From Eledone cirrhosa (Eukaryota): a stretch of DNA of 64,000 bases. Where the stretch lies: NCBI GenBank assembly GCA_964016885.1, contig OZ024742.1, positions 29,574,001 to 29,638,000 of the forward strand, read 5' to 3'. Position 1 is the first letter of the stretch, and every line of letters begins with the position of its first letter. The position numbers and the translations under genes are program-made. Below are positions 292 to 55,596 of the stretch, in pieces. The notes beneath the pieces are model-generated. The model saw only the letters and a program-made list of their open reading frames with translations. It was not told the origin of the DNA and made no database searches.

Positions 292-385
<94 letters not shown>

Positions 386-2576
386 AATACAATAACAGAG
401 ATAGTTTAAAGCTAAACTCTGACTGGTAACCATCTCACTCAACAAACATTAGGTTATATTTAAATATAAACCCAATTTAAGTCTTTGGGGTGCTAACAAT
501 ATGTATAATGTGGAAAAACCAGTTGTATTATTTTATGAGATATAATTAAAGTTAAAGTATATCTCTCTTTCCAAACAATTGTTTCATTATAAGTTTTCTA
601 CAAGTTGGGAGAATATTTCCAGTTTATGTAGAAGCCTAATATATATTCTTCTAAGAATATATTTAGGTGGGCGCTTATAAATCATCAGTGGAAGCCCATT
701 AAACTTTGATATAAGAAAGAAATTCTTACCGCGGTCAAAAATCGAGTCTGTTAAGTTGCTCCTTCTCGCCTCGAATGACCGCCAAATTTGAAATTCCAGC
801 AGTCTTTGACTGAGGAAGTATCATAGCGACACGAAGCGGGAAGGGGAGACAACTACGATCCACGAAAGGAGGAAAAAAATAATATACACGCGGGTTAATT
901 AGTTTTTTCGAAAACATTATCAATCCAACGTGTTAAGAACTCAATTGAAAATAAAAAAATAAATATATGCGTGTATAAATTACACACGCATATAGATATT
1001 TTCTTAGGCTAAAATCAGAAGTTGTACCCGAATAAGAACCGCATCTCATAACCGCAGTAAATACAGAAAGTTATGCTTTAAAGGGCAAATGGGAATGTAA
1101 ATCTCCGGCCGAATTAAGAGTAAAATATAAAACACACGCGGGTTAATTAGTTATTTCAAAACTAATATTAATTCCTCGTGTAAAGAACTCAATTAATTAA
1201 AGAAAATAAATGTATGCATGTAATTATATACATAGGCATATATATATTTTCTTAGGCTAAAAAACAGAGAAGATACAACCAAAAAAAGCCACAACATTTC
1301 ACAACAGTAATAGATACGGAAAGTCAAATTCATAAGGTACCTGGAAATAAACACCTCTGGCCAATCAAGAGTAAATATTTAATACAATAACAGAGATAGG
1401 TTAAAGCTAAACTCTGACTGGTAACCATCTCACTCAACAAACATTAGGTTATATTTAAATATAAACCCAATTTAAGTCTTTGGGGTGCTAACAATATGTA
1501 TAATGTGGAAAAACCAGTTGTATTATTTTATGAGATATAATTAAAGTTAAAGTATATCTCTCTTTCCAAACAATTGTTTCATTATAAGTTTTCTACAAGT
1601 TGGGAGAATATTTCCAGTTTATGTAGAAGCCTAATATATATTCTTCTAAGAATATATTTAGGTGGGCGCTTATAAATCATCAGTGGAAGCCCATTAAACT
1701 TTGATATAAGAAAGAAATTCTTACCGCGGTCAAAAATCGTGTCTGTTAAGTTGCTCCTTCTCGCCTCGAATGACCGCCAAATTTGAAATTCCAGCAGTCT
1801 TTGACTGAGGAAGTATCATAGCGACACGAAGCGGGAAGGGGAGACAACTACGATCCACGAAAGGAGGAAAAAAATAATATACACGCGGGTTAATTAGTTT
1901 TTTCGAAAACATTATCAATCCAACGTGTTAAGAACTCAATTGAAAATAAAAAAATAAATATATGCGTGTATAAATTACACACGCATATAGATATTTTCTT
2001 AGGCTAAAATCAGAAGTTGTACCCGAATAAGAACCGCATCTCATAACCGCAGTAAATACAGAAAGTTATGCTTTAAAGGGCAAATGGGAATGTAAATCTC
2101 CGGCCGAATTAAGAGTAAAATATAAAACACACGCGGGTTAATTAGTTATTTCAAAACTAATATTAATTCCTCGTGTAAAGAACTCAATTAATTAAAGAAA
2201 ATAAATGTATGCATGTAATTATATACATAGGCATATATATATTTTCTTAGGCTAAAAAACAGAGAAGATACAACCAAAAAAAGCCACAACATTTCACAAC
2301 AGTAATAGATACGGAAAGTCAAATTCATAAGGTACCTGGAAATAAACACCTCTGGCCAATCAAGAGTAAATATTTAATACAATAACAGAGATAGGTTAAA
2401 GCTAAACTCTGACTGGTAACCATCTCACTCAACAAACATTAGGTTATATTTAAATATAAACCCAATTTAAGTCTTTGGGGTGCTAACAATATGTATAATG
2501 TGGAAAAACCAGTTGTATTATTTTATGAGATATAATTAAAGTTAAAGTATATCTCTCTTTCCAAACAATTGTTTCA

Positions 2577-12327: not shown

Positions 12328-12424
12328 CGAGAGAGATAGATAGATATATTACCCCATTCCCACTTGAAAGCTGAGGATAAGACGTATGGATATGCCCCAT
12401 ATATAGTATTATGTCATGTAATAA

Positions 12425-12620
12425 TGGTTTCTGATTCAGGCACAGGGCCAGCAGTTTATGTGGGAGTAGGAAAGTTAATTAAATCGACGCCAGTACTTAA
12501 CTGGTACTTTATTTTATCGATCCTGTAAGGATGAAAGCCAAAGCTAACGTCGGCGGGATTTGAACTCAGAACGTAAAGACCCAAGCGAAATACCACAGAG
12601 TATTTCGTCCGATGCTCTAA
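12425..12620 (-). mobile_element. tRNA-derived SINE (family 1), truncated at the Tx1 fragment
   Basis: Reverse complement of the family-1 core (ctggtactttattttatcga..gtaaggatgaaag..gggatttgaactcag). Confidence 0.8.
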
Positions 12621-13048
12621 GGGGGAAGTTTACATACAATAAAAACGTGTAAAATATTATCACAAATGCAATTGAAAAGTTAATAGATTTTCCCCAATAG
12701 GGGGAAACATTTCATATAGGTAACACATACCCCCGAAAAAATGTGCAACCCTCATCTCCAGGAGTACGAAAAATTTGTACCCCCTTCCTATCTTCCTCCT
12801 TTTCCTCAACCTACTTTCACCCACCTTTTATAAAACTTGCTGGGGTACAGCACCTCTCTCTCCATCCTGATTCTTCTTCCAAAATGATATTTGATAAAAC
12901 GAATCAGTTGCTCTCGCCGGAGAGAAAGGTGTCTGACCTCAGCCCTTTTAACCTCGTTCATCATACAACCTCTTTCGCCATAGCTATCACACAAATGAAA
13001 ACCGCATCTCCTTCGTTTTTGAAGGAGGGTGGCGGTTTGATCATGACA
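12621..13048 (-). mobile_element. Tx1-like retrotransposon 3' fragment (copy A); its 5'-truncated end abuts (GATA)n 13052-13120
   Basis: Homologous to 24891-25364 and 38270-38743, with a small internal deletion. Encodes KYHFGRRIRMEREVLYPSKF. Confidence 0.92.
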
Positions 13049-13050
13049 GG

Positions 13051-13120
<70 letters not shown>

Positions 13121-23465: not shown

Positions 23466-23827
23466 ATGTATATAAACGATATATACTTGGATATACCAAT
23501 TGAGAAACAAACTAGTATCTTGTACATATATAAAGAGCAAATGATATGTAGATTTAATACAAATTTAAAAACATATTCTTAGGTGTTCAAATAGGGCTAT
23601 ATTTACATTAAGATTATAATTTACTATCATAGATAGATATGTTTATATTTATATATAATTAAGGTTTGGTTTCAAAGGGAGATAAGGAAGGGAAAGGATT
23701 CACAGTTAAATAAGGTACTCAATGCATTTGTTCATAGAGAAACGATTTCTGTAAGCCAAGAAACGAATGAAAAGTTTCGTGTCCTGTAAACATGAAATAG
23801 CCGGATAGATAGATAAACAGATAGATA

Positions 23828-24785
23828 TATTCCTTTATTTGCCACAAGGGCGCACAAGAAAAGGGGACAATACAAAGACACATACCGGGGATTTTACATA
23901 CAGTCGGGTAAAAAAAAAATATAAAAAACAATTATAACAATCGAAATCCCTAATAGCGAGGAGATGCCACAAATGGGTTGTTTAATACCCCGTCGATAGA
24001 ACAACCCTCAACTTCAGGAGCGTGTTGTGCAAGTGCTTCCTTCTTCCTTTTGCTCTCTTCTTTAACCTACAGGCTTATAAACAGAGGAGGCCCAATCACT
24101 CGGGCCATTTTCGCTTCATTCACCCACCTTTCAGTAAATTTACTGGGGTGCAGTGCCTCTCTCTCTCCATTCTGATACTTCTTCTAAAGTGATATTTAAA
24201 GAAGGGAATCAATTGTTGTTCGGAGAGAAAGGCATCTGTCCTCAGTCCTCTCAATCTCGTCCACCATATAACCTCTTTCACCATAGCCACTGTACGGAGG
24301 AAAACCGCCTCTCTTTCGTTTTTGAAAGAGGCTGGCGGTTTGATCCTTACTATGGACTCGGTAGTCAACTGGATTTGTCCCATACGCGACAGCAGTTGTT
24401 CTGCTTAGTTCCACAGGTCGCTTACGCCCGAGCAGTGTACAATTGCGTGCAAGACGGTTTCAATGTCCTGCTGGCATCTTGGACACGTCTTCTTGGAAGA
24501 ATCCCTGTCGGGGCGTCCGTGCCTGTAAATCTTGTCACGAACCGGTAGAGCTCCTCGGAAGCACTGCCAGGCCAGGGATTGTGGAAGTTGTCCATAGGTC
24601 CCGGGCGGAAAGTCCTACCGAACAGACTGGTGAGCTCGTCGTCTTCGACGCCTAGAGTCTCCCCGAGCACGTCGTCGCATTTGTAAAGTACTAACCCTCT
24701 ATAGAATGTCGAAGTGGAGTCTCCATAGATTGCTGTGACCGCTTGACAGGGGACTGTGAGCGCCTGGGCGCATTCAATATGCCGG

Positions 24786-24786
<1 letters not shown>
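23828..24786 (-). mobile_element. Tx1-like retrotransposon copy B, 5'-truncated, between GATA tracts
   Basis: C-terminal ORF2 (PGPMDNF, VIWWTRL, KYHFRR). Its own 3' UTR has AATAAA. GATA repeats at 23804-23826 and 24787-24842. Confidence 0.92.
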
Positions 24787-24843
<57 letters not shown>

Positions 24844-25081
24844 TGTTTCTTTATTAGCCACAGGGGCACAAAAGAAGGGGACAAATACAAAGGGGGAAGT
24901 TTACATACAATAAAAACGTGTAAAATACTATCACAAATACAATTTAAAAGTTAATCGATTTTCCACAATAGGGGGAGACATTACATATGGGTAACACATA
25001 CCCCCGAAAGAATGTGCAACCCTCATCTCCAGGATTACGAAGAGTTTGCACCCCTTTCCTCTCCTCCTCTTTTTCCTCAAC

Positions 25082-28000
25082 CTACAGGCTAATATAGAAA
25101 GAAGGCCCATTCACTCGGGCCATTCTCGCCACTTTCACCCATCTTTCATAAAACTTGCTGGGGTACAGCACCTCTCTCTCCATCCTGATTCTTCTTCTAA
25201 AGTGGTATTTGAAAAAAAGAATCAGTTGTTGGCCGGAGAGAAAGGAGTCTGACCTCAGCCCTTTCAACCTTGTCCACCACACAACTTCTTTCGCCATAGT
25301 TATCACACAAAGGAAAACCGCCTCTCCTTTGTTTTTGAAGGAGGGTGGCGGTTTGATCATGACAATGGACTCGGTGGTCAACCGGATTGGTCCCACCCGC
25401 GACAATAGTCGTTCTAAATAGCCCCACAGATCGGTAACGCCCGGGCAGTGTATGAATGCGTGCGCGACGGTTTGTTCGTCTCGCACGCACCTAGGACAAA
25501 TCTTTTTCGGAGGGTCCTTGCCCGGGCGCCCATGTCTGTAGAGCTTGTCTGAACTGGTAGAGCTCCTCGGTAGCAGTGCCAGGCCAGGGCCTTTTGGAAG
25601 TTGTCCGTCGGTCCCGGGCGGAAGGTACTACCGAAGAGACTGACCAGTTCATCTTCCGCTACGCCTAGAGATTCACCGAGCGCGTTGTCGCACTTGCTGC
25701 GGATCAACCCTCAATAGAATGACGAAGTGGAGTTTCCACTGATCGCCGGGTCCGCCTGCCAGAGGGCCGTGAGCGCCTGAGCACATTCGATGTGCCAGTC
25801 GCCCATTTTCCTCGGTCTTTGCTTGACCCAGGACTGCAGCTCAGTCAGCAAGATGAGTCGTGGGAAGGCTCGCCTCACGAACGGGGCCCACACCGGTTGT
25901 CCGGTGAGGAATACGTAGAGATACCGCAGCCTGAGCACGTATTTGCGCATCGTCAGCCACGGTTGCCCCAGCCCTCCGTTGTAGGGTGTTGGCAGCAGAT
26001 GGATCTTCTCACCAAAGGAGCCCGCCTCCTCCAAAGGAATTAGAAGAGCGCGCGCTCCATTTTGGTGAGCGTTTTGACTGGACAAGGCACGACGGTCAAG
26101 CGGTAGTAGATGGCGGACGCTATAAAAGTGTTCGCCACCTCCTCTCGACCTTTCAAGAATAGTTTGCACTTGGCCCACTTCTGGGTGAGTGCAAACACCT
26201 TGGCCGTCACCTCGTTCCAGTTCTTCTCCACCTGGAGATCCGGACCAATCCAGACCCCGAGCAGCTTTACCGGTCCTTCAGTCCAGCGTCCGACGACGCC
26301 ATCGGAAGGCATCAGTTTGCCTCTCCACGATCCGAGTTGCAAACCGATGGACTTGTCCCGGTTCAGCTTCGCTCCTGTGAACCTTTCGTATTCCTTCAGT
26401 AAGGTGCCGACTTCCTCGATTTGCGAGGCGCTCGACACTACTACTGTTACGTCGTCGGCGTAGGCCGAGGCTGCTTTCCGCAGTCCCGGTTCCATAGGGA
26501 TGCCCTGCAATAGCTCCAACTTCCGCAGTAGTGGCTCGAGAGTCAGTACGTACAGAAGGGAGGAGAGAGGGCATCCCTGTCGAATGGATCGCGTGATATG
26601 GAACGGCTCCGAGAGGTAGCCGTTCATCTTGAGCAGATGTTGCTGTGGTGCATTGCAGCAGTGCAACCCCTGAACACGGGTCCGAATCCTGCCGCCTCGA
26701 GCACCGCATCCAGATAACCATGGTCAACCCTATCGAAAGACTTAGACTTATCCAAGTTGATCAGGGCCCCACCGAAGCCGGGTTTACACCCTACCCTCTC
26801 TATGATGTATCGCATGAGGTAGAGGTTGTCGTGTACGGACCTGGTTGGGATTGCGCATATCTGCGCTTCTCCCACCAGGTTCGCGAAGACAAACGCCAGC
26901 CTCTTTGCCAACACCTTGGCCAAAATCTGTAACTCTGCTGTTTAGCAGAGTTATGGGCCGGAAGTTGCCTATGTCATCTCCCTTATTCTCGTCCTTCCTG
27001 ATTAGTGTGACTACGCCCCCGGCCACAGAACTGGGAATTCTCCCGTTCTGCTGCCAGTTGCAGTAGACCGCTTCCAGGAGACCGGAGAATAAGTCCGGCA
27101 TTGCTACCGAAATCCATAGCCCTTCTCGGCGCGCCGCCCTGCCCGAACAGTTGAGCAAAGTGCCGCTGAAAGTCCTCACACATCTGCTTCGGCTCACGTA
27201 TCACGCGTCCGTCTTGGTCCTTCAAAGACTGAATCGTGGACTTGTTTCCACTTTTTGCCTCCGTCACTCGGGCCCAGCTAACAGCTTTGGCTCCCTCGTT
27301 TCCCAGAGCACGTATTTTGCTTCTGACAACGCATCCCTCGTGCTTTGCGTCGAAGAACTGGTCCAAGGCCGTTCTCGTTGCTAGCACGCTGTCCCTCGTT
27401 GCCACTTCTAATTGCCTCTTCTACTTTATCTACCAGTTCCTTCTCGGTCCTATTTCTATCTAACGCTAATTCTTTACTAAAAACTAACGAATCTAATCTA
27501 ACTGCCCCCTTGAGAGAGTACCGCCATCTGTTGTTGACAATGGCCCCTGTCAAGTGCTGTTTAACTAAAGTGCTAATCCGTCTACTGTAGGCTTTGCATG
27601 TCGGTAACGACAAGTTCAGCTTCCAGTAGCCGGGTCCTTGTCTATGGGTTCTATCAAGGTTGACCATGCAGGTCACTAGTTTGTGATCTGAATAGGCAAC
27701 CATGAACATTTGTGGACAGCTTAACATGTCCCTATCCTTATTTCTAACTAAAACCCTATCTAGGTACGATCTAGATGTTCCGCTACGATTAGTCTACGTC
27801 CACAGTGGCACAGTCGGAAAATCTAGTCGATATCTAACAGCCAGGTCAAATCGGCCGATTAACTGTTTGAGGCTGTTACACACCCCTCTATCGGGACATG
27901 CTCCCACATAGTCCCAACGTGCATCTAGGATTCCATTCCAGCCCCCACTAAAATCAAGGAGCGTGACGTTCCCAGAAGAGTCTCTAGACGTTTGAAGAAG

Positions 28001-28340
28001 TCTGGCCGCGGTGTCCCGGATGGGGTATATGCGGCCACCAGCCTGAAGGCTCTACCTTCACTACCGTCAATGTCTAGGACCACCAGTCGACCCTCCGGGT
28101 CCAGATGTACCGTCTGTGTTACGAGGCCCAGGTGTTTCCGCAGCAAAACGGCAACTCCGCCTCCCACACCCCGGCTGACAGAGAGATTCGTAGATCTCAA
28201 AGTCATCGAAGATGGGGGCCAGCTGTCGCAAATGGCTACTACATCCATACTGTGCGACCTGAGGTCGTTTAAGAGTTGCCCTGTTTCCAGGACATCCCCA
28301 GGCCGCGTACATTCACACATCCAACTCTTATATTGGCCAT
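25082..28340 (-). pseudogene. Copy C ORF2: APE endonuclease, RT and C-terminal zinc finger (multiple frameshifts)
   Basis: ATG at 28340 (MANIRVGCVNVRGL), SDHK, GPGYWKLN, NFRPITLLN, QGCPLS, YADD, C..C...HAFIHC. Confidence 0.93.
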
Positions 28341-28389
28341 GTTGGTTCTGAAAAGTTAAAAGAAGAGAAGAAAACACTAACCTCTTCGT

Positions 28390-30242
28390 CTCCCGGGGAC
28401 CAGGCCGCACGATTTCCATGGGGGTGTTAGAGGGGTTGTCTGGTGGGTGGTGGTTTCCGGCGGGGTGGGGACGGAGATGTTTGGTGGGGAGGGGTGTATG
28501 ATGGGGTGCGGGTGTCTGGGCTGAGGGTGGGGAAACTTTTTAAAAGGACGTGGTTAATTGGTTTAACACAAGGATTACCCACGTCCTGGGGAAAGTTTTC
28601 CTTTAAAGACTTATAGGTGTCCGTAAGGACCCTAATCATCTTTAAATTAGGTTTGTCTATACAGTTCGAAAAAGTTTTCCCTTCGGTTTTCACCGAAGGG
28701 TCGTTGGAGATGACCTCCATTAAAGTTTTGTTTTTACTGTTTATGTATGTGTAATGTTCTTGTTGTGTTGCGTGGTTTTTGTCTGTTGTTCTTGTGGGAG
28801 CTTTCGTTTTGTTGTAGGTGTTTGTGTTTGGAGTGATGTCGTGGTTTTGTTTTCGGACGGGAGGTTTTTGTTTGTAATGTTTGTGTTGTTTGTGTTGGTG
28901 GTTGTATGTTTGTGTTGGGGGTTGTTGTCTTTTTGTTCTTGTCGTGTCTTTTCTTTTTTCTTTTCGAACGGAGAGGCTCTCTCTCATCGTCACTTGGTGA
29001 TGATGGGGGGACCTCGTCCGTTGTGGTGTCTGTGTTATTTGGAAGGGGTATGTTTTGGGGAGCTGTTGTGTTTCTGGGTGTTTTTGCAGTGGTTTTAGGT
29101 GGAGTGGGGTTGGGTGGGACTGTGCTTGCAGGTTGGTTTGTTGTTCTTGTTTTGGTTATGTTTGCGTGTTATTGTTGTTGTTGTTGTGGTGGTGGTGGTG
29201 GTTGTGTTGTTGTTTTGGGTGTTGGCAGTAGTGCCTCTTTTTTTTTAGTTAACTGAGGACAGTAAGCCTTCAGGTGACCACTGCTTAAACAGTGGTAACA
29301 TGAAGGCCGCCTACCCTCAACAGAAATGTTTATGTGTGAAATTCCATCCAGAGGCCCACGTTGGGGTATTTTAGCTATCCGTTCTGGCCTCATTTGGACC
29401 AGAACTTCCATGCTTGTACCATTGAATGTGCCTCTGAAGGACTTTCCCACCGAAATGATGGTGTCTTCGTCGAAATCGATGAAGCCAGTTAAAATCCACC
29501 AGGCGTTTACATTTGATGCAATGTTCGAATTTTTTTTATCTTTTGTGTCCTTTTTCCCATATATGTGGAGAAAAAGGTGTAAAGGGGGGACACAATCGGC
29601 GATACAGAATATTTTTGTGCCGTCAAATTCGTCTTTCAACAACACCAAAATGCTTCCAAAAAGTTTCCCTTTTTGGATGAAGACAATATCCTTCATGAAA
29701 TTCTTCAGAACCAGTTCAACGTCGTTTTTGGATAATTGAACTGGTTTTTTCGACACATTTGAAACCGTCCTAAAAATTATTGTTTTTAGAACAGTTTCTC
29801 TGCGTAACTGTTGAGGAGAAGTGATGCTCTCACCAAAAGTTACGTACTGTTTTGCATCGCTTAACATTTCCCTAGCATTGGAAATGTCAAGGTATGTGAA
29901 CAGTTCCGTCTTTTGGACGGTTTGAGCAAAGGAAATCTTTTCCTTGTTCGTGGAGTTGTTCGTGTTGCTGTTGTTGTTGGTGGTGTTGTTGTTATCATTG
30001 TTGCTGTTGTTGTTCTTGTTGTCATTATTGTTGTTGTTGTTGTTGTTCTGGTTAGTGTTGTTTATATTTTGCATATTATATGTGTTTGTGTTAGTGTTGA
30101 TGTTACAATCAACGTCCGACATCGTGTTTTCAAAACTGACGACATTTTCGATGTCTTTCAATGAGGTGATGAGAGCAGGTGACTGCGGGCTTAACACTCT
30201 TACCGCCTCTTCACCACTTCTAGTATTCAACGCAGCGTCCAT
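28390..30242 (-). pseudogene. Copy C ORF1, gag-like protein
   Basis: Asn-rich N-terminus, CYHCLSSGHLKAYC zinc knuckle, Pro/Thr/Gln-rich tail; frameshift near 29170. Confidence 0.85.
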
Positions 30243-30491
30243 GACTGAATGCAAGATTTGTTTACAATTTTTTCACCGACGAAATCTTTTTCCAAACGAA
30301 AATTTCACCCCAGGGAGGGGTGAAGATCACTTGACCCACCGTCTGAAAGTCCAGACGTGGGGTCAAGCTATAAAATAGTATTAAATTTAACAATACATTT
30401 TTGATTTCTTACTTAGAAAATCAACAAAAACTTACCAGCGAACTGGCGCACGTCTCAAGATACATACATACATAAGATTGAAAAGGTAAAC

Positions 30492-30577
<86 letters not shown>

Positions 30578-30810
30578 GTTTCTATTTATTTGTCACGAGG
30601 GCACAAAAGATGGGGACAAATACAAATGGGGAGGTTACATAAAGGAACGAGTAAAAAACAATGGCTGAAACAGGTAAAAGAGTAAAAGAGTAATACAGTC
30701 CTCAATAGGGAGGGGGCGTTTTGTGGGTTACACACAACCTCAAAAAGTGTGCAACCCTTTTCCTTAGGAGCACAGAGAGGGGGTGTTCCTTTGCACTTCC
30801 ACCTTTCCAA

Positions 30811-33800
30811 CTACAGGCTGATAAAGAGAGAAGGCCCATTCACACGGGCCATTCTCGCTACTTTCACACACCTTTCATAAAACTTGCTGGGGTAGAGCAC
30901 CTCTCTCTCCATTCTGAAAATGGTATTTAAAGAAAAGGACCAGTTGTTGGCCGGAGAGAAAGGTGTCCGACCTCAGCCCTTTCAAACGTGTCCACCATAC
31001 CACTTCTTTCACCATGGCTATTACACAGAGGAAGACCGCCTCTCCTTCATTTTTGAAGGGGGAGGCGGCTTGATCGTTACAGTGGACTCAGTGGTCAACC
31101 GGATTGGTCCCACCTGTGACAGCAGTCGTTCGACATAGCCCCACAGAGCGGCAACGCCCGAGCAGTGTACCAATGCGTGCGCAACGGTTTCCTTGTCGCG
31201 CACGCATCTGGGACAGATTTTTTCGAGGGGTCCCTACCCGGGCGCCCGTCTCTGTAGAGCTTTTCTCGAACTGGCAGCGCCCCTTGGTAGCACTGCCAGG
31301 CCAGGGACTTCTGGAAGTTGTCCATAGGTCCCGGGCCAAATGTCCTCCCGAATAGGCTGGCCAGTTCGTCTTCCTCCATGCCTAGGGCTTGTCCGAGGGC
31401 TTCGTCGTACCTACTAACCACCAGCCCTCTATAGAATGACGAGGTGGAGTCTCCACGGATAGTTTGGGTCCGCCTGCCAGAGAGCCGTGAGCGCCTGAGC
31501 ACACTCAGTGTGCCAGGTGTCCAGTTTTCTCGGTCTTTGCTGGACTGCAGCTCGGTGAGTGAGACGAGTCTCGGAAAGGCTCGCCTCACAAACGGGGCTC
31601 ACACCGGTTGACCGGTGAGGAATACCTGGAGGTGCCGTAGCCTTAATGCGAGTTTACGCATCAGCAGCCACGGCATCCCCAGCCCTCCTTTCGAAGGATG
31701 TTGACAACAGATGGATCTCCTCACCAAAGGAGCCCGCTTCTTCCAAAGGAATTGGCAGAGTGCGCGCTCCATTTTGGTGAGCGTTTCCCTTGGGCAAGGC
31801 ACGATGGTCAAGCGGTAATAGATGACGGACGCTATATAAGCGTTCGCCACCTCCGCTCGACTTTTCAGGGATAGTTTGCACTCAGCCCACTTCCGCGTCA
31901 GCGCAAACACTCTGTTCGATACCTCACCCCAGTTCTTCTCCAGCTGGAGGTCTGGCCCAAACCAGACCCCGAGCAACTTCACCGGGCCCTCCGTCCAACG
32001 TCCGACGACCCCGTTGGAGGCCATCGGTCTGCCCCTCCACTCGCCGAGTTGCAAACCGACTGACTTGTCCGGGTTAAGCTTAGCCCCTGTAAACGTTTCG
32101 TATTCCTCCAGGAAGGTGCCGATCACTCCGATTTCCGAGGCGGTTGACATCATTACTGTCACGTCATCGGCGTAGGCCGACACCGCTTTCTGCAATCCCG
32201 GTTCCAAAGGGATGCCCTGTAACAACTCCAACTTCCGCAGCAGTAGCTCTAGGGCCAATACATACAGAAGGGAGGAGAGAGGGCATCCCTGTCGGATAGA
32301 CCGCGTGATATCGAACGGCTCCGAGAGGTAGCCGTTCACCTTGACCCTAGAGCAGATGCTGCTGCTGTGCATTGCAATTGATCCAGCCCCTGAAAACGGG
32401 TCCGAAACCTGCCGCTACTAGCACCGCATCCAGGTAACGATGGTCGACCCTATCGAACGCTTTAGATTGATCCAAGTTGATCAGGGCCCCACCAAAGGCG
32501 GGTTCGTTCCCAACCCTTTCTATGATGTATCGCATGAGATGGAGGTTGTCGTGAATGGATCTGGACGGGATGGCGCATGTCTGCGCATCTCCCACCAGGT
32601 TGCCCACGACAAGCGCCAACCTCTTTGCTAACACCTTGGCCAAAATCTTTAACTCTGCATTTAACAGTGTTATGGGCCTAAAATTACTTATTTCATCCCC
32701 TTGATCTCGTCCTCCTTCACTAGCGAGACTACGCCCTTGGTCACAGAACAGGGATGTTTCCCGTTCTGTTGCCAGTTGCAGTAGACCGCTTCGAGGAGAT
32801 CGAAGAACAAGTCAGGCATACTTAAATACAATTCGTATGGAAGACCATCGAGGCCAGAGATTTGCGTCTGCCGCATTGGCTCAGTACGTCCCCTATTTCA
32901 GCAGCTGAGATCGGCCGCTCGCAGGACTTCGCCTCCTCGTCCAAAAGACGCGGCAGGCCGTCGATGTATGGAGCGAGGTCTATATCCCCATCCGGCCCCT
33001 CGTCCCTTCCGAACAATCGAGCAAAGTGCCTTTGAAAGGCCTCACACATCTGCTTACGTTCAAGGAGCACTCGTCCATCCTGGTCTCGCAAAGACCGGAT
33101 AGTGGATCTAGTCCCACTTTTGGCTTCTGTCACGCGGACCCAGCTAACTGTTGCTTGACTAGTCTACTTATCCGTTCACTGTAAGCTTTACGTGCCGGCA
33201 ACGACACGTTCAGCTTCCAATATCCGGGTCCTTGTTTATGTGTTCTATCACGGTTGACTAAGCAGACGACTAATTTATGATCTGAATAGGCAACTATGTG
33301 CATTCGTGGACAGCTTAACATTTCCTTGTCCCTTTCTCTAATGAAGAACCTATCTAAATACGATCTAGATGTCCCACTGAGGTTTGCCCACGTCCACTGT
33401 GGTGCAGTCGGGAAATCCAGTCGATACCTATCGGCCAGTTGGAATTGGCCGATTAAAGTTTTGAGGGTGTTGCACCCCGCTCTACTGGGACATACTCCCA
33501 CATAGTCCCATCGTGCATCTAGGATACCATTCCAGTCCTCCACTAAAAGTAAGGAGCGAGACGTTCCCAGAAAGGACTCTAGACGCTTAAAGACGTCTGG
33601 CCATGATTGCGATTGCCCGGTCGGGGCATAAACAGAAGGCTCCACCTCCAATACTGTTTACGTCTAGGACTACCAGTCTACCCTCCGGGTCCAAGTGTAC
33701 TTGCTGTACTTCGACGTCCAGGTTCTTCCGAAACATAACAACCACTCCACCCCCACCTCCTGGCTGACAGAGAGATGCGTAGATCTCAAAGTCGTCGAAG

Positions 33801-33952
33801 ATGGGGGTTAGTTGCTGCCTGTTGTGGATCCTGGACTCCGTGATGGTTATCACATCCATACCGTGTGACCTAAGGTCGTTTAAAAGTTGGCCCTGTTTCC
33901 AGGACATCCCTAGGCTACGCACATTCACGCTTCCAACTCGTAAACTAGCCAT
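30811..33952 (-). pseudogene. Copy D ORF2 (APE-RT-CCHC)
   Basis: MASLRVGSVNVRSL, SRSYLDRF, SDHK, DQSKAFDRV, QGCPLS, YADD. Internal deletion near 33135 relative to copy C. Confidence 0.93.
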
Positions 33953-34008
33953 GTTGGTGAAGAAGAGTTGGAGAAAAAAGGCGAAAGGTGCACTTACCTT
34001 TTCGTTTC

Positions 34009-35896
34009 CTAGAGATCGGGTTGTTCAATCTCCATTTGGGTGCTGGATGGGGTGTTGGGTGAGGTGGGGAAACATTTTAACAGGGCGCGGTTAATGGGTT
34101 TCTGGCAGGGTTTGCCCACGTCCTGTGAAAATTTATTTTGTAGGTCATTATAGGTTTCCATAGAAACCCTTATAAGTTTAAGGTTTGGAGACGATTCTGC
34201 CTTGACGAAAGTTTTGCCCTCCGTCTCCACCTTGGGGTTTTGGGAGATGACCTCCATCAAATTCTTGTTGTTTGTGTTTTTGTTGTGTTGTTTTAGTTTG
34301 TTGTTCGTCCGGGAGTTTTCTTTTTATGGTGAGTGCTTGTGTTTCGGGTGGTGTTGGTGCTGGTTTTGCTGATAGGTGGATGTTTGACTGTGGTGTTGTT
34401 TGTGTTGTTGTTTGTGTCTGTGGTTGTGTGTTGGTGTTGGTGATTGGAGTTTTTGGGGTTTTGTGGTGTCTCTTTTTTTGTTTTTTGGATTTCCGCGATT
34501 CTCCCTCTTCTTCACTTAAAGAAGGAGAAGCAGCTTCATCCATCGATGAATAATCATCGTCAGGTGTGTGGGGTAAGGGTACGTTGTGTGGTGGTGGTGT
34601 TTCGGTGTGTGTGTTTGTGGTAGTGTTTGATGGAGTGGGATGGAGTGGGGCTGTGTTCTTCAGGGGTGTTGTCTCTGTTTTTTCTGTTGTAGTTGGTTGA
34701 GTGTCTGTTTGTTTTGGTGTGGTTGCTCGTTTCGTCTGTCGTTGTACTTGTGGTGGTGGTGGTTGTTTTGGTGTTGGTGTTGGCAATAGCGTTTTTTTAT
34801 GATGTTGTTGTTGTGTGTTTGTGGACAAGAGGCTTTTAGGTGTGCTGTGCTACCACAGCGAAAGCAATGAAATTTTCGTCCTTCTACCAAAATGTTTATT
34901 TTGTTGTTATTATCGATAACGACTCTTTCGGGTATTTTGGAGATTCTCTCCGGTTTCATTTTGTACATAATTTCCAAATCTGTGCCCGCCTACCTTTGTC
35001 GAATAGATTTTCGTATCGAAAGTATCATATCTGTTTCTGGCTCTACGAAGCCAGCCAAGATCCACCAGATGTTAATGTTTGGAGGTATGTTTTTTATTTT
35101 TATTTTGTGTGTTTTTTTTCCCATGTATGTAGGGAAAAAGGTGTATGGTTTTGACACCATTGGTGTCACAGAGTTTTTTGGGCGAGTGCCTCGCTTTTAA
35201 ACAGTACGGAAACACTTCCGTACTGTTTTCCTCGCTGGAGAAAATCGACATTTGCTAGAATTTCCTTGAAAGTATCTTCTATATCTGCTTGGTTAACAAA
35301 TGTCGGCTTTCTTGTGGAATTTGACACAGTCCTAAAAGTGACTGATCTGCGGATTGTGTCTTCATTTATTTCAAGGGGTGAGTTAATTCTAAACCCACCT
35401 CTTTCTTCGAAAGTTACACATTTTCTCCCTTGCTGGAGCATATCTCTCTTGCGTTGGAGATATCAAGATTTATAAAATCTTGCTTTCTGTTCACTGTTTC
35501 AGCGAAAGACATTTTCTTTTTTTGTGTGGTGTTGCTGTTGTTGTTGTTGTTATCGTTGTTGGAAATCTCAGTTCCTTGTCGAGGTGAAACATTATGTGTA
35601 TATGTATCTGTAGAGTTGTTGATGTCTTTTTCATGTATGTTAATGGGTTTAATTCCTGTGTTTTCCTGTGTGTTATTGTTATTTTTCTCGGTTTCGACGG
35701 AAGAAATTTTAAAATTTTCAAGTGTTAATATTTTTTTTTCTTTGTTGACACTTGTATCTATGGCGACGTCCATAGTAGCAGAAGCAGATATAACGTCAAT
35801 ATCTGCCTCTTTCTCTCTCTTTTCTCTATTAACGTTCTCCAGCGTTCTTGTGTTGCTCAAGTTATTTAGTTTGTAAAATCTGATATTTTGAAACAA
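34009..35896 (-). pseudogene. Copy D ORF1, gag-like protein
   Basis: CFRCGSTAHLKASC knuckle, with SFAETV, FRTVSN and EGKTF blocks shared with copy C ORF1. Start position uncertain. Confidence 0.82.
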
Positions 35897-36081
35897 ATTT
35901 TTAAAATAAAATTTTCGCCCCTGCAGGGGCGAAAAATGGGATTACCACCCAGCTGACAATTCAGCTTAGGGGTTAATCTACAAAGTGTTATGTTTTTTCA
36001 AACAATTAGTTCGGTTTTTTGCATAGAAATTAACAAAAAAGCTTACCGGCGATGTTCCACGCGTCAGACAGAAAGAGAGAG

Positions 36082-36174
<93 letters not shown>

Positions 36175-36175
<1 letters not shown>

Positions 36176-38235
36176 GTTTCTTTTATTTGCCACTAGGGCA
36201 TCAAAAGTGGGACAAGTACAAAGGGGGGAGTTTACACAAAAAGGCGTCCTCAATAAGGAGGAGGCAATAACAAAATATAAAAATAAAATAAGATATAACA
36301 AAAAATAAAATTTTTAACAAAATCCTCAATAGAGAGGAGGCGCCTTGGGGGGTCGCACACACCCCCGAAAAAAGTGTACAACCCTTTTCCTCAGGAGCAC
36401 AGAGAGGGGGTGCTCCCTCGTTCCTTCCTCTTTTCCACCTACAGGCTTATGTAAAGAGAAGGCCCATTCACACGGGCCATTCTCGCCACTTTCACCCACC
36501 TTTCATAAAAACGACTGGGGTGCAGCACCTCTCTCTCCATCCTGATCCTTCTTCCGAAATGAAATCGGAAGAAACGGACCAGTTGTTGGCCAGAGAGAAA
36601 GGTGCCTGACCTCAGTCCTTACAGACGCGTCCACCATACAACCTCTTTCGCCATGGCTATTACGCACAGAAACACCGCCTCTGCTTCATCTTTGAAGGGG
36701 GGAGGCGGCTTGATCATTACAATAGACTCGGTGGTCAACCGGATCGGTCCCACCCTTGACAGCAGTTGTTCGACATAGCCCCACAGATCGGCTACGCCCG
36801 AGCAGTGTACCAATGCGTGTGCAACGGTTTCCTCGTCGCACACGCATCTGGGACAGATCTTTTTGGCGGGGTCCCTACCCGGGCGCCCGTGTCTGTAGAG
36901 CCTTTCTCGAACGGGTAAAGCCTCTCGGTAGCACTGCCAGGCCAGGGACTTCTGGAAGTTGTCCATAGGTCCAGGGCTGAATGTCCTACCGAACAGGCTG
37001 GCCAGTTCGTCCTCCTCCATGTCTAGGGCTTCTCCGAGGGCGTCGTCGCACCTGCTGCGTACCAGCCCTCTATAGAATGTTGCGGTGGAGTCTCCACTGA
37101 TAACCGGATCCGCCTGCCAGAGGGCGGTGAGCGCCTGGGCACACTCAGTGTGCCAGGCGCCCAGTTTTCTCGGTCTTTGCTTGACCCAGGATTGCAGCTC
37201 GGTGAGTGAGACGAGTCTGGGAAAGGTTCGTCTCACAAACGAGGCCCACACCGGTTGTCCGGTGAGGAATACGTAGAGGTGCCGTAGCCTTAATGCGTGT
37301 TTACGCATCATTAGCCACGGCATCCCCAGCCCTCCTTTCGAAGGGTGTTGACAGCAGATGGATCTCCTCACCATAGGAGCCCGCCTCTTCCAAAGGAATT
37401 GGAAGAGCGCGCGCTCCATCTTGGTGAGGGTTTCCCTTGGGCAGGGCACTACGGTCAGGCGGTAGTAGATGACGGACGCTATATAAGTGTTCGCCACCTC
37501 CGCCCGACCTTTCAGGGATAGTTTGCAACTGGCCCACTTCTGGGTCAGTGCAAACACCCTGTTCGTAACCTCCGCCCAGTTTTTCTCCACCTGGAGGTCC
37601 GGTCCGAACCAGACCCCGAGCAACTTCACCGGGCCCTCCGTCCAGCGTCCGACGACGCCATCAGAGGGCATCGGTCTGCCCCTCCACGTGCCGAGTTGCA
37701 AACCGATCGACTTGTCCCGGTTCAGCTTAGCCCCTGTGAACTTTTCGTACTCCTCCAGTAAGGTGCCGACCGCCTCGATTTCGGAGGCCGTCGACACCAT
37801 TACTGTCACATCATCGGCGTAGGCTGACACCGCTTTCCGCAATCCCGGTTCCAAAGGGATGCCCTGCAACAACTCCAACTTCCGCAGTAGTGGCTCGAGA
37901 GTCAACACATACAGAAGGGAGGAGAGAGGGCACCCTTGTCGGATGGACCGCGCGATTTTGAACGGCTCCGAGAGGTAGCCGTTCACCTTGACCCTAGAGC
38001 AGATGCGGCTGCTGTGCATAGCAGTGATCCAGCCCCTGAAAACGGGTCCGAAGCCTGCCGCCGCTAGCACCGCATCCAGGTAACCATGGTCGACCCTATC
38101 GAACGCCTTAGATTGATCCAAGTTGATCAGAGCCCCACCAAAGCCGGGTTCGTTCCCAACCCTCTCTATGATGTATCGCATGAGGTGGAGGTTGTCATGG
38201 ATGGACCTGGACGGGATAGCGCATGTCTGCGCATC
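36175..38235 (-). mobile_element. Tx1-like copy E, 5'-truncated within RT, fused directly to the 3' UTR of copy F
   Basis: Own 3' UTR with AATAAA next to (GATA)n; junction gcatc/ccacagggggcacaag at ~38235. Confidence 0.93.
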
Positions 38236-38268
38236 CACAGGGGGCACAAGAGAAGGGGACAAATACAA
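36619..38268 (-). CDS. 549-aa open Tx1 ORF2 segment (most of RT plus zinc finger), chimeric N-terminus
   Basis: DQSKAFDRV, QGCPLS, YADD, CPRC..HALVHC. The first ~11 codons derive from copy F's 3' UTR. Confidence 0.75.
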   Translation of the reverse strand: MYLSPSLVPPVDAQTCAIPSRSIHDNLHLMRYIIERVGNEPGFGGALINLDQSKAFDRVDHGYLDAVLAAAGFGPVFRGWITAMHSSRICSRVKVNGYLSEPFKIARSIRQGCPLSSLLYVLTLEPLLRKLELLQGIPLEPGLRKAVSAYADDVTVMVSTASEIEAVGTLLEEYEKFTGAKLNRDKSIGLQLGTWRGRPMPSDGVVGRWTEGPVKLLGVWFGPDLQVEKNWAEVTNRVFALTQKWASCKLSLKGRAEVANTYIASVIYYRLTVVPCPRETLTKMERALFQFLWKRRAPMVRRSICCQHPSKGGLGMPWLMMRKHALRLRHLYVFLTGQPVWASFVRRTFPRLVSLTELQSWVKQRPRKLGAWHTECAQALTALWQADPVISGDSTATFYRGLVRSRCDDALGEALDMEEDELASLFGRTFSPGPMDNFQKSLAWQCYREALPVRERLYRHGRPGRDPAKKICPRCVCDEETVAHALVHCSGVADLWGYVEQLLSRVGPIRLTTESIVMIKPPPPFKDEAEAVFLCVIAMAKEVVWWTRL

Positions 38269-39711
38269 AGGGGGAAGTTTACATACAATAAAAACGTGTA
38301 AAATGTTATCACAAATGCAATTTAAAAAATTAGTCGATTTTCCCCAATAGGGGGAGACAGTTCATATGGGTAACACATACCCACGAAAGAATGTGCAACC
38401 CTCATCTCGAGGAGTACGAAGAGTTTGTACTCCTTTCCTCTCCTCCTCCTTTTCCTCAACCTACTGGCTGATATACAGAGAAGGCCCATTCACTCGGGCC
38501 ATTCTCGCCACTTTCACCCACCTTTCATAAAACTTGCTGGGGTACAGCACCTCTCTCTCCATCCTGATTCTTCTTCCAAAGTGGTATTTGAAAAAAAGAA
38601 TCCGTTGTTGGCCGGAGAGAAAGGTGTCTGACCTCAGCCTTTTCAACCTTGTCCACCATACAACCTCTTTCGCCATAGCTATCACACAAAGGAAAACCGC
38701 CTCTCCTTCGTTTTTGAAGGAGGGTGGCGGTTTGATCATGACAATGGACTCGGTGGTCAACCGGATTGGTCCCACCCGCGACAATAGTCGTTCTACATAG
38801 CCCCACAGGTCAGTGACGCCCGAGCAGTGTATGAATGCGCGACGGTTTCTTCGTTACGCACGCACCTCGGACAGATCTTTTTTGCAGGGTCCCTGCCCGG
38901 GCGCCCATGTCTAGAGCTTGTCTCGAACTGGTAGAGCTCCTCGGTAGCACTGCCAGGCCAGGGACTTTTGGAAGTTGTCCATCGGTCCCGGGCGGAAGGT
39001 CCTACCGAACAGACTGGCCAGTTCATCTTCCTCTACGCCTAGAGTTTCACCGAGCGCGTCGTCGCACTTGCTGCGGATCAACCCTCTATAGAATGACGAA
39101 GTGGAGTCTCCACTGATCGCCGGGTCCGCCTGACAGAGGGCTCTGAGCGCCTGAGCACATTCGATGTGCCAGTCGCCCACTTTCCTCGGTCTTTGCTTGA
39201 CCCAGGACTGCAGCTCGGTCAGCGAGACGAGTCGTGGGAAGGCTCGCCTCACGAACGGGGCCCACACCGGTTGTCCGGTGAGGAATACGTAGAGATGCCG
39301 CAGCCTGAGCGCGTGTTTGCGCATCGTCAACCACGGCATCCCCAGCCCTCCGTTAGAAGGGTGTTGGCAGCAGATGGATCTTCTCACCAAAGGAGCCCCC
39401 CTCTTCCAAAGGAGTTGGAAGAGCGCGCGCTCCATTTTAGCGAGCGTTTTGGCTGGACAAGGCACGACGGTCAAGCGGTAGTAGATGGCGGACGCTATAA
39501 AAGTGTTCGCCACCTCCGCTCGACCTTTCAAGGATAGTTTGCACTCGGCCCACTTCTGGGTGAGTGCAAACACCTTGGCCGTCACTTCGTTCCAGTTCTT
39601 CTCCACCTGGAGGTACGGACCAAATCAGACCCCGAGCAGCTTTACCGGTCCTTCCGTCCAGCTTCCGACGACGCCATCGGAAGGCATCGGTTTGCCTCTC
39701 CACGATCCGAG
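38235..39711 (-). mobile_element. Tx1-like copy F, 5'-truncated, same subfamily as C and A; 5' end abuts (GATA)n 39709-39786
   Basis: Aligns with 24859-26336 at high identity. Confidence 0.93.
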
Positions 39712-39720
39712 ATAGATAGC

Positions 39721-39786
<66 letters not shown>

Positions 39787-52007: not shown

Positions 52008-52351
52008 CAAAGGAATTGTGGTAAGGAACCAGATGGACCATTAGTCCAGAAATAGCCATCGAAACGGCTTGAGCTCTGCCGTCGGGGGTCATACTTTTTC
52101 CTATATATATATATATATATATATAAATTGATGAGCAGAACAAACAATTATATTATAGACACCCTATATATCTCTATGGGTACTTAGTACTCAGTGAGAG
52201 ATTTACCTCATTTTTATATATATATATATATATATATAGTGACGAAATATATATATATAACGAAGGAAGTGTGGTAAGGAACCAGATGGACCATAACGCA
52301 CCAGAGTATTCAATACTTAGAGTAGTAGAGTGGGTAATAGGAACATTTTTA

Positions 52352-52446
52352 ACTCCGACGGCTGAGCTCAAGCCGTTTCGACGGCTATTTCTGGACTAAA
52401 TTGGAATTTTTAGCGTGGTAATAAATAGCCGAACTTTTCAAGGAGT
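52352..52446 (-). ncRNA. Type I hammerhead ribozyme with U3:A8 core and long stem II (mirror copy ~54480-54575 on the plus strand)
   Basis: actcc TTGAAAA g-tt-cggctattt..aaatagccg-t-c GAAA cggct-tgagctc-agccg TC ggagt. Stem I has 5 WC pairs, stem III is fully paired, and the triplet is GUC. Confidence 0.75.
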
Positions 52447-53010
52447 AATTCCTTATATGGGAAGATTGTAGTTGTCAAAAGGATTGGTCAAAGTTTCTTG
52501 TAAACACAATTAAATCTTTCATGGCAGTGGGTGGGTGGTGGGGCTGAACTTACCTGTAGAACAATGAGGGAGTGGGTGGAGCCGGTCAAGGCATAAAAGC
52601 AAATTCTAAGGAGTGTGTATGAAATTAGGCTAGTAAGGAAACAGGCGAAAAAGGTACTGAGAGTGGGATGTTATAGAAATGGTTAATAAATTGAGATTAA
52701 AAGATAATTAAAAAAATAAATAAATAAATAAAAATATTAATAATAAAATTAAATAGTAAAAATAATAAGAAAAACTCTAGAGTCTAAAGCAGTTGCTATA
52801 TTTTTAGCTGGTATTGCGTTTTCGGCCAATGCTATATATAATTTACTGGGCTGGGAGTACTGAGGCTACAAACGCCGGGTGGGCTGCCTTGGAGTAGGCG
52901 AAAGAGGGAAAAGGAAAAGGAAGAGGAGAGGCAGTGGAAGGAAGTGATAAGAAGAAATAAAAGGAAAAATAAAAGAAAAAGAAAAAGAAAAGAAGTTCAT
53001 CTACCTATGT

Positions 53011-53830
53011 ATGCAGGGGTTTCCCCTGGTTAAAAACATCTCCCTCCGCATATCTAGTTTGTCCGTTAATGAGCAGATATTCGATGAACATGCGCCTCAT
53101 TACAATCAGGCCCTCAAGCGAAGCGGCTTTCGGGGGGAAATCTCCTTCTATCCAGCTTTCCTTAGTGGAACCAGCAGGCGACGGCGCCGCTCACGCCACG
53201 TAACGTGGTTCAACCCTCCACACAATGCCGAGGTGGCAACACCAATCGGGAAAATCTTCTTTAGGCTCCTAGAAAAACACTCCCACCACAACACCGCAAC
53301 CACAATATAATCAACAAAACACTATCAAACTCTGCTCTAGCACCACACCCAACTTCGCACAAAACATCACCTCCTCAAACTACAAGAAACTCAACCCCTA
53401 TGGAGGAAACAACCTAGACATTAGTGGAGAGCAGACTATGAGATGTAACTGCTCTGATAGATCTACGTGCCCTCTCAACAAGAGATGCTGAGGACGTAAC
53501 GTGAGGACGGAAACCTCCAACAAAGCCTATATAGGATTAACCGCTTGCGACTTCAAGACCCGACTCTACCAACACCGACATACGTTCCGAAACCCGGCCA
53601 GACAACATGCCACTACACTTTCGGGCCACATCTGGGACCTCCAAGATAACAACATAACATACAATCTTACTTGGAGCTTACTGTCCAGGGCTAACTCCTA
53701 CACAGGAGGACGCCTTCCGTGTAACGTATGCTCTGAGAAAACATTACAAATGCTGTTTACGAAGGACGAACTCCTAAACAAAAAAGAAAAACCTGTAACT
53801 GCATATAAACACCGATTTCGTAAGACTTAA
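53011..53830 (+). pseudogene. PLE C-terminus: WFNPP linker, Cys cluster and GIY-YIG endonuclease (frameshifted)
   Basis: VTWFNPP, CNC..CPL..C (53444-53488), YIGLT..FKTR..QH..F, TLS.HIW.L, CNVC.EK, LLNK. Confidence 0.9.
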
Positions 53831-54585
53831 CTCGCCCGCAAACCCCCTCATGACCCGGGTGGGTAGACAATGGTTGCAACATCCTTCTTTTCCCCACTTG
53901 CCGAACAAAATAGGGGAAACCCCAGCATACAATTTCTTTTCGTTTTCCCTTTATCTCTTCTTATCACTTCCTTACACTCCCTATCCTCTTGTTTTCCTTT
54001 TTTCCTCTTTCGCCTACCCCCAAGGCAGCCCATCCGGCTTTTGTAGCCTCAGTACCCCCACCCCAGTAAATTATATATAGCATTGGCCGAAAACGCAATA
54101 CCAGCTAAAAATATAGCAGCTGCTTTAGACTCTAGAGATTTTTCTTATTTTTACTATTTAATTTTATTATTAATATATATATATATTTTTTTTTTATTAT
54201 CTTTTAATCTCAATTTATTAACCATTTCTATAACATCCCACTCTCAGTACCTTTTTCGCCTGCTTCCTTACTAGCCGAATTTCATACACACTCCTTAGAA
54301 TTTGCAGTATAGAATTCACTCAACGCTTGACCGGCTCCACCCACTCACTCATTGTTCTACAGGCAAGTTCACCCACCACCACCACCACCCCACACCCACT
54401 GCCATGAAAGATTTAATTGTGTTTACAAGAAATGTTGACCAATCCTTTTGACAACTACAATCTTCCCATATAAGGAATTGCTCCTGAAAAAGTTCGTCTA
54501 TTTATTACCACGCTAAAACTTCTAATTTAGTCCAGAAATAGCCGTCGAAACGGCTTGAGCTCTGCCGTCGGGGTTAAAAGTTTTC

Positions 54586-54644
<59 letters not shown>

Positions 54645-54654
54645 GTAAAAATAG

Positions 54655-54830
54655 ATTCTACAGGACTAGAACTGTTTCATTCGGAAGAAATCATCGTGGC
54701 TTTCTGATGATTTCTCCCCAATGAAATAGTTTTAGTCCTGTAGAAGCCATTTCTATATTAAATATTTATACTGTGCTATGTATTGAGTACCTTACTTACT
54801 GTGGTTACCCCCGATTGAACCCGGGATATA
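54655..54830 (+). ncRNA. Fold-back element with hammerhead motif 54698-54748; inverted family copy at 55345-55525
   Basis: ggcttt CTGATGA tttctccccaat GAAA tag-ttttagtc-ctg TA gaagcc, facing an inverted partial copy at 54656-54696. Confidence 0.6.
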
Positions 54831-54858
54831 CATATATATATATAATTCAACACTACTT

Positions 54859-54932
<74 letters not shown>

Positions 54933-55523
54933 AGTGTTGAATGAATCTGTAGAACAGATATAGGAAACAGAGTACTCTATTCAATACATTGAGCTCGAAG
55001 TAGAAACGCACAAACTAAACCATATGTGTGATTGGAAACCTATTGTAGCAACAACTAGGTATTAAACATATCTACACTGTAGCATATTTATATAGATACA
55101 TATATTATTAAATTTAAGCCCAAATCACACTGGTGAGAAATACAAATATATATATATATATATACATATATATAGAAGTAAAAAAACAAAAATTCAAAAA
55201 ACAAAAACAATAACGAAGAGTGCAGTACAAATAGTGTTGGTATTAGGTTCACGCAGGAGAGTTGGGTGGGGGATATATATATATGTGTGTGTGTGTGTGT
55301 ATGTGTGTGTCTGCCTGTGTGTCTGTGTGTCTATGCATGTCTGTATACCTGGTTCAATCGTGGGTAAACACAGTAAGTAAAGTACTCAATATATAGCAGA
55401 GTATAAATATTTAATATAGAAATGGCTTCTACAGGAGTAGAACTGTTTCATTCAAAGGAAATCATCAGGAAAGCTTTGATGATTTCCTTCGAATAAAAAT
55501 GTTCTAGTCCTGTAGAAGCCATT

Positions 55524-55596
<73 letters not shown>

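What the first reader, a model, noticed from the sequence alone, without database searches (positions are those of the whole stretch)
23804..39786. (GATA)n-specific Tx1-like retrotransposons piled into a 16-kb co-oriented array
Seen: five copies (B-F), all on the minus strand, separated by (GATA)n (24787, 30493, 36083) and bounded by it (23804, 39709). Their intact 3' ends have AATAAA, ~10 nt, then (ATCT)n with no poly(A). Three independent 5'-truncation points (13048, 24786, 39711) also abut the repeat, so it is a target and not merely a tail. Orientation relative to the GATA strand never varies. Established: some Tx1-group elements target microsatellites (Kibi (TC)n, Koshi (TTC)n). Inference: this is a GATA/TATC-targeting lineage whose APE nicks one strand of the repeat, and each insertion leaves target on both sides, so the array can keep growing. 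I do not know of a described GATA-specific family, but I cannot search for one.
Basis: partly seen in the sequence, partly recalled or inferred. Interest (0 to 1): 0.88.

Follow-up and report, generated by a model that had tools for sequence, protein, structure and literature searches.

The report
Octopod LINE stack in GATA repeats
Five copies of a jumping gene, from what is likely an octopus relative, sit head to tail in GATA repeats, the same short sequence that borders most copies sampled across the genome; sister branches border other repeats, which would make this a ready test of how such elements choose where to land.

Summary
Real, with one correction. Five minus-strand Tx1-like LINE copies (B-F) fill 23.8-39.7 kb; three junctions and both ends carry (GATA)n, but E joins F with no repeat. 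The copies belong to four subfamilies of different age, so the array grew by separate insertions. Elsewhere in the genome 79 of 97 3' ends run into TATCT and 12 into TATAT (background 0.16% and 2.9%); 54 of 58 full-length 5' ends and 51 of 69 other 5' junctions have TATCT beside them. At non-array sites 9-20-bp target duplications start at that motif, with no tail and no poly(A): it is a target. Intact two-ORF copies over 99% like copy E exist. Sister branches border (ATT)n, (TGTC)n and one site in a 72-bp satellite; the TGTC branch nests inside the GATA clade with an 88% identical endonuclease. Microsatellite-targeting Tx1 families are known (TC, TTC, TTCC/TTTC); I found no GATA one in the papers searched, but could not check Repbase or Dfam. 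Whether the endonuclease or read-through RNA picks the site is untested. The scan noted this family before on other windows of this genome.

The parts
23804..23827 (.). Degenerate (GATA)n, 3' flank of copy B
23828..24786 (-). Copy B: 5'-truncated, decayed, oldest sampled subfamily (best match among fetched loci 94.7%); ORF2 end, 3' UTR, AATAAA at 23834-23839
24787..24843 (.). (GATA)14 spacer between C's 3' end and B's truncated 5' end
24844..30459 (-). Copy C: full length, both ORFs broken by frameshifts and stops, internal deletions; best match 96.3%
30460..30492 (.). 33 nt between C's head and the repeat (TATG-rich); either flank or an insertion in the head
30493..30576 (.). (GATA)21 spacer
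30577..36082 (-). Copy D: full length, both ORFs broken; best match 96.3%
36083..36174 (.). (GATA)23 spacer
36175..38235 (-). Copy E: young (99.76% to other copies), 5'-truncated in RT; 538 open codons (RT, zinc-binding), one premature TAA at 36619-36621 not shared by intact relatives
38236..39711 (-). Copy F: C-type subfamily, 5'-truncated, last 13 nt lost at the direct joint with E; best match 97.7%
39710..39786 (.). (GATA)n at F's truncated 5' end
12620..13050 (-). Copy A, outside the array: 5'-truncated against (GATA)17 at 13051-13120; 3' end lost beside a SINE-like repeat

Best explanation
The array is five copies of a Tx1-like LINE, from four subfamilies, whose ends meet TATCT/(TATC)n here and at most sites sampled in the genome; its endonuclease likely nicks the GATA strand just after 5'-AGATA, and each insertion duplicates the target, which would leave a fresh site for the next copy. 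Shown: fixed junction motif, 9-20-bp duplications that start at it, no tail, no poly(A), intact APE-RT-zinc-finger ORF2 in young copies, head-to-tail arrays at many loci. Inferred: nick position; reverse transcription starting at a fixed point 6-8 nt past AATAAA, likely helped by a few read-through bases (UAUCU) pairing with the nicked strand; second-strand nick 9-20 nt further on; E inserting at F's 3' spacer and deleting F's end. I put target-specific insertion at about 0.95 and the endonuclease as main selector at about 0.6.
For: 3' flanks: TATCT 79, TATAT 12, other 4, unanchored 2 of 97 copies picked by element-body similarity (the 2 unanchored also read TATCT by eye). 53 of those 79 have two or more TATC units against 232 of 2580 background TATCT sites. 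Full-length 5' heads: TATCT within 25 nt in 54 of 58, directly behind another copy's 3' end in 28 of 58 (background 3.4%). Other 5' junctions: TATCT 51, TA run 3, none 15 of 69 scored. Duplications at non-array sites (L005 14 bp, L023 16, L164 11, L165 9, L170 20, L068 11, L010 10, L187 about 17) begin at TAT[C/A]T with the same number of units on both sides. In L049 and L169 the whole spacer behind the upstream copy is the duplication. ORF2 1145 aa with Pfam Exo_endo_phos, RVT_1, zf-RVT and the L1 catalytic positions aligned. Trees put the window copies in B, C/F, D and E subfamilies of one GATA clade, SH-aLRT 100. Neighbouring copies within 6.5 kb: 15 pairs against 2.2 expected, 14 on the same strand (first 100 pattern hits, lineages mixed). 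Tx1L endonuclease nicks its target almost exclusively in vitro (PMC1950540, passages).
Against: No biochemistry and no RNA data. 15 of 69 5' junctions lack any repeat, 8 of 36 among young copies (one of the 8, L165, has a duplication). The hairpin loop implicated in target choice varies inside the GATA clade (R, H, L or F at one position; S, T or Q at another) without a change of target, and the TGTC branch shares its Q with a TATC-flanked copy. Copies were the best hits to five queries, so old or odd copies are under-sampled; 28 of 97 had no scorable 5' junction. Long arrays may partly have grown after insertion.
Confidence: 0.7

Rival explanations
1. Read-through RNA picks the site: transcripts are cleaved inside the flanking repeat, carry a short copy of it, and prime only where a loosely specific nick exposes the complementary strand; a copy landing in a new flank would found a new target lineage.
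For: AATAAA is only 6-8 nt from the junction, so cleavage 10-30 nt downstream (established knowledge) would fall in the flank; no poly(A) at 97 ends. The conserved bases all lie on the primer side of the junction; the base before the duplication varies. Four targets in one clade, one switch with 88% identical APE. SART1Bm and R1Bm RNAs are proposed to anneal to the target (PMC7265360, passages).
Against: At non-array sites the 3' junction has no extra units and keeps target variants such as TATAT (L165), so RNA is not seen to template or correct the junction. Young E copies nearly identical in sequence use TATAT in 7 of 39 cases, leaving only 3 nt of pairing.
Confidence: 0.22
2. (TATC)n is an element-made tail, and repeats at 5' ends come from target duplication plus later slippage, not from targeting.
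For: Many 3' tracts are only one or two units long; 11 of 19 (TATC)4+ runs in the evenly spaced sample lie next to family copies, so the family may seed or lengthen arrays.
Against: The motif is inside the duplication, present once on each side with no added units; 5' ends of truncated and full-length copies face the same strand of the repeat.
Confidence: 0.05
3. The array arose by tandem duplication or unequal crossing-over of one copy.
For: Some arrays of the TGTC branch repeat the same spacer variant four times, which duplication could also give.
Against: Window copies are 75-94% identical to each other, each closer to copies elsewhere (94.7-99.8%; A's subfamily not sampled), with different 5' ends.
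Confidence: 0.03

Closest known systems
Kibi (TC)n and Koshi (TTC)n, teleost Tx1 families (Kojima and Fujiwara 2004; seen only as described in PMC4494074 and PMC3812793, passages)
   Same: Tx1-type APE LINE inserted into a microsatellite.
   Different: Target is TATC; host is probably an octopod (nearest named protein Argonauta hians, 67% over the RT region); fish Tx1-type proteins are about 36-39% identical in that region and form a separate branch.
Crocodilian Tx1-1_Crp group on (TTCC)n/(TTTC)n (PMC4494074, passages)
   Same: Tetranucleotide microsatellite preference in a Tx1 lineage.
   Different: Different repeat; sequences not available here for the tree.
SINEU-3 / Tx1-Mar tandem insertions (PMC4494074, passages)
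   Same: Tandem copies sandwiching a target duplication, explained by sequential insertion.
   Different: Target is a Mariner transposon, and the tandem units are SINEs.
Tx1L of Xenopus; SART1Bm and R1Bm (PMC1950540, PMC7265360, passages)
   Same: Models for the two mechanisms: specific APE nicking, and RNA-target annealing.
   Different: Other targets; SART1Bm inserts with poly(A), this family without.
Dong (TAA)n (PMC3812793, passages)
   Same: Same repeat as the ATT sister branches found here.
   Different: Dong is classed as R4 clade (Dong-R4 in PMC13282606), not Tx1.

Membership tests
L1/Tx1 group non-LTR retrotransposon | ORF2 with N-terminal APE, RT and C-terminal zinc-binding region | tested here: met
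   Intact relative L161: Exo_endo_phos E 7e-7, RVT_1 E 5e-26, zf-RVT E 3e-5 (below its cutoff); best solved-structure hit human L1 ORF2, E 5e-48.
L1/Tx1 group non-LTR retrotransposon | Separate ORF1 with CCHC zinc knuckle | tested here: met
   618-aa ORF1, zf-CCHC at 334-350, E 0.003, below Pfam's cutoff.
L1/Tx1 group non-LTR retrotransposon | 5' truncation and target-site duplication | tested here: met
Tx1 clade | RT groups with Tx1 references | tested here: inconclusive
   Quick tree: the clade plus unnamed ENA proteins (100) shares an unresolved fork (SH-aLRT 91) with fish/turtle proteins, two named 'transposon TX1' by their sources; U2- and 5S-flanked elements lie outside. No Repbase references; careful search did not finish.
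Target-specific Tx1 (criterion of PMC4494074: over 20% of flanks) | One sequence type in most flanks | tested here: met
   79 of 97 3' flanks, 54 of 58 and 51 of 69 5' flanks.
Kibi / Koshi | (TC)n or (TTC)n target | tested here: not met
   Target is TATCT/(TATC)n; 2 of 100 surveyed ends face TCTCT.
Mammalian-type L1 | Poly(A) tail and TTTT/AA target | tested here: not met
   No poly(A) at 97 3' ends.
Sequence-specific APE (Tx1L type) | Endonuclease nicks the target in vitro | not testable with these tools
   Needs biochemistry.
An already annotated Repbase/Dfam family | Match to a curated consensus with a stated target | not testable with these tools
   Neither library is held; O. vulgaris has 80 L1-Tx1 consensus families with no target stated in text or supplement (PMC13282606).

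The most novel reading that the evidence does not exclude
One octopod Tx1 clade retargets itself through its own RNA: with the poly(A) signal 6-8 nt from the end, transcripts carry the flank they were born in, and that flank steers priming. This has produced GATA, GACA, TAA and 72-bp-satellite specialists in a single genome with little change in the endonuclease.
Probability: 0.2. Interest if true: 0.8.

Novelty: new variant of a known kind. Interest (0 to 1): 0.52.

Why it matters
How APE retrotransposons target microsatellites was called 'not well understood' in a 2013 review (PMC3812793, passage). This genome holds intact, recently copied elements with different targets and close enzymes (GATA vs GACA: 88% identical APE; GATA vs ATT: about 56-65%), so swaps of endonuclease and RNA end can separate the two mechanisms. 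The clade is also a large force in the genome: 41,875 exact matches to a 3'-end pattern (48 for the reversed control), about 2.3% of an evenly spaced sample, and it sits beside many of the (GATA)n arrays.

Tried and rejected
Tail-only and tandem-duplication readings rejected. My first reading of the E/F joint as a later deletion was softened: E is very young and young copies often lack a 5' repeat, so loss at insertion is more likely; neither is shown. RNA test: no RNA holder listed; laying four unlabelled contig sets gave nothing on transcript ends or splicing. Metagenome scan returned only distant relatives (24-34% best segment, one 43%), so targets of the nearest non-octopod relatives are unknown. 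Direction of the ATT/GATA switch: one RT tree groups ATT-a with GATA (99) using a single ATT-b row, a C-terminal tree and a smaller RT tree leave it open; not claimed. A few old copies have a more perfect 3' than 5' duplicate (L064, L083, L085) but others the reverse (L073), so no evidence of RNA correction. Literature: nine searches (less none failed; a tenth attempt was malformed) gave no GATA-targeting Tx1; Kojima and Fujiwara 2004 and Christensen 2000 are not held; supplements and figure 3 of PMC4494074, which list targets, could not be seen and may bear on novelty. No structure was predicted; loop positions come from the L1 alignment.
Full report
Observation. The window is from a 3.0-Gb animal genome rich in microsatellites. 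Between 23804 and 39786 lie five homologous minus-strand copies, 75-94% identical to each other, with (GATA)n at both ends and at three of four junctions. E joins F directly at 38235/38236: F lacks its last 13 nt and E starts inside RT. The four intact 3' ends read AATAAA, 6-8 nt, TATCT, no poly(A). C and D are full length but broken; E has 538 open codons and one private stop; B and F are 5'-truncated.

What the element is. Copies over 99% like E are dispersed through the genome (40 of 40 scored hits, 1363 candidates) and several have both ORFs open. L161 gives a 618-aa ORF1 with a weak CCHC knuckle and a 1145-aa ORF2 with APE, RT and zinc-binding regions, aligning to human L1 ORF2 with the catalytic positions in place. 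The nearest named protein is from Argonauta hians, 67% over the RT region, so the host is probably an octopod (inference). In a quick RT tree of 67 rows the clade shares a fork at SH-aLRT 91 with fish and turtle proteins, two named TX1 by their sources; three short rows were dropped. Tx1 membership is likely, not proven.

Target test. I took the best genomic hits to the 3' ends of C, E and B and to the 5' ends of C and D, with no repeat in the queries, and removed the window's own copies. Of 97 3' ends, 79 continue TATCT, 12 TATAT, 4 other, 2 not anchored by my pattern. Background in 80 evenly spaced 10-kb stretches is 0.16% and 2.9%. 53 of the 79 have at least two TATC units, against 232 of 2580 background sites. 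Of 58 full-length heads 54 have TATCT within 25 nt and 28 follow another copy's 3' end. Of 69 scorable other 5' junctions 51 have TATCT, 3 a TA run, 15 nothing; 28 copies were not scorable. In the evenly spaced sample the GATA-type 3' ends found by motif were all followed by TATCT, one after four extra bases. At non-array sites clear duplications of 9-20 bp start at the first T after the element and have the same unit count on both sides. So the motif is target, not tail, and the orientation rule follows from it.

How the array grew. The window's copies fall in four subfamilies, B, C/F, D and E, and each is closer to copies elsewhere than to its neighbours (94.7, 96.3, 97.7, 96.3, 99.8%). That is serial insertion. 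L049, L169 and L187 show the step itself: the duplication begins right behind, or spans the spacer between, existing copies. E most likely entered at F's 3' spacer and deleted F's end (inference).

Sister branches. The evenly spaced sample turned up relatives at 70-75% identity ending in (ATT)n. Of 58 further copies 51 continue ATTAT and none TATC; 18 of 20 extended loci show a full-length head directly behind (ATT)n. Following an earlier scan note, I tested a TGTC branch: its distinctive end occurs 259 times, and 79 of the first 100 continue TGTCT, 11 TATCT (counted by hand); one intact full-length copy has TGTC on both sides and nests inside the GATA clade by APE (99) and RT (97), APE 88% identical to L161. 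A general end pattern gives 41,875 matches (control 48); the first 100, all from the start of one contig, continue TATCT 43, ATTAT 25, ACTCT 13, TATAT 6, TGTCT 2, TCTCT 2, other 9 (counted by hand). Three of three ACTCT ends fetched sit at the same position of a 72-bp satellite; their 5' ends and coding regions were not seen.

Mechanism. Best supported: target-primed reverse transcription from a nick on the GATA strand after 5'-AGATA, a second nick 9-20 nt on, target left on both sides. Whether enzyme or RNA selects cannot be read from sequence, because the conserved bases are all on the primer side. For the enzyme: Tx1L's APE is specific in vitro and its hairpin loop affects nicking (PMC1950540, passages); ATT copies have a fixed I where GATA copies have S at the loop tip (5 vs 17 sequences); no extra or corrected units at junctions. 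For RNA: the poly(A) signal is so near the end that cleavage would fall in the flank, no copy has poly(A), annealing is proposed for SART1Bm and R1Bm (PMC7265360, passages), and loop residues vary within the GATA clade without a target change. I favour enzyme-led with short pairing as helper. No RNA holder was listed.

Against what is known. Kibi (TC), Koshi (TTC) and crocodilian families (TTCC, TTTC) are microsatellite-targeting Tx1; tandem insertion around a duplication is described for SINEU-3 (PMC4494074 passages; PMC3812793 passages). Ten paper searches and passages of three cephalopod repeat papers (PMC13282606 with its supplement, PMC8967140, PMC9115989), of PMC4640811 and PMC8869645 gave no GATA-targeting Tx1. 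Repbase, Dfam, the 2004 paper and the target figure and supplements of PMC4494074 were not seen. Earlier scan notes report the same family on other windows of this genome; they are not independent support.

Verdict. Real and target-specific; a new target and a multi-target radiation within a known behaviour. The array itself is ordinary for this family. Interest 0.52, for the testable contrast between close sister enzymes.

Noticed in passing
L435-L437 (G000:C1:4228880-4229330, 4259300-4259700, 9601850-9602150): A sister branch whose 3' ends meet one position (ACTCTATATATAC) of a 72-bp satellite; 13 of the first 100 surveyed ends, six in a row at about 5.9-kb spacing.
   Followed up: partly
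L411-L430, L351-L410: Two (ATT)n-bordered sister lineages with their own head-to-tail arrays; ORF2 about 68% identical to the GATA type.
   Followed up: yes
L431-L434: (TGTC)n-bordered lineage nested in the GATA clade; intact full-length copy in a 5.6-5.7-kb-spaced array.
   Followed up: yes
L161 vs L153: Same young 3' half (99-100% identical from about 3.0 kb on) carries two different 5' halves (67-82% over UTR and ORF1, about 90% over APE): recent 5' swapping.
   Followed up: partly
window 30420-30440 and 36030-36050; heads in L161, L411-L429: GTAAG about 20-30 nt into the 5' UTR of all lineages, followed by a T-rich stretch and AG, like a small intron; another GTAAG/GTTAG just before the ORF2 start. 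No RNA to test.
   Followed up: no
window 12420-12620: tRNA-like SINE beside copy A; the same repeat ends in (ATT)n elsewhere and often lies just upstream of ATT-type Tx1 heads.
   Followed up: no
L037, L079: A copy's 5' truncation point lies within about 20 nt of the truncation point of the copy just downstream; unexplained.
   Followed up: no
L280, L281, L285, L271, L274; L286, L290; L302: Distant metagenome relatives flanked by U2, 5S and U1 RNA genes, as known for other Tx1 families.
   Followed up: partly
window 377-1806 / 1372-2801; 52337-55587: Unrelated near-identical 995-bp-period duplication, and inverted repeats of 240-660 bp.
   Followed up: no
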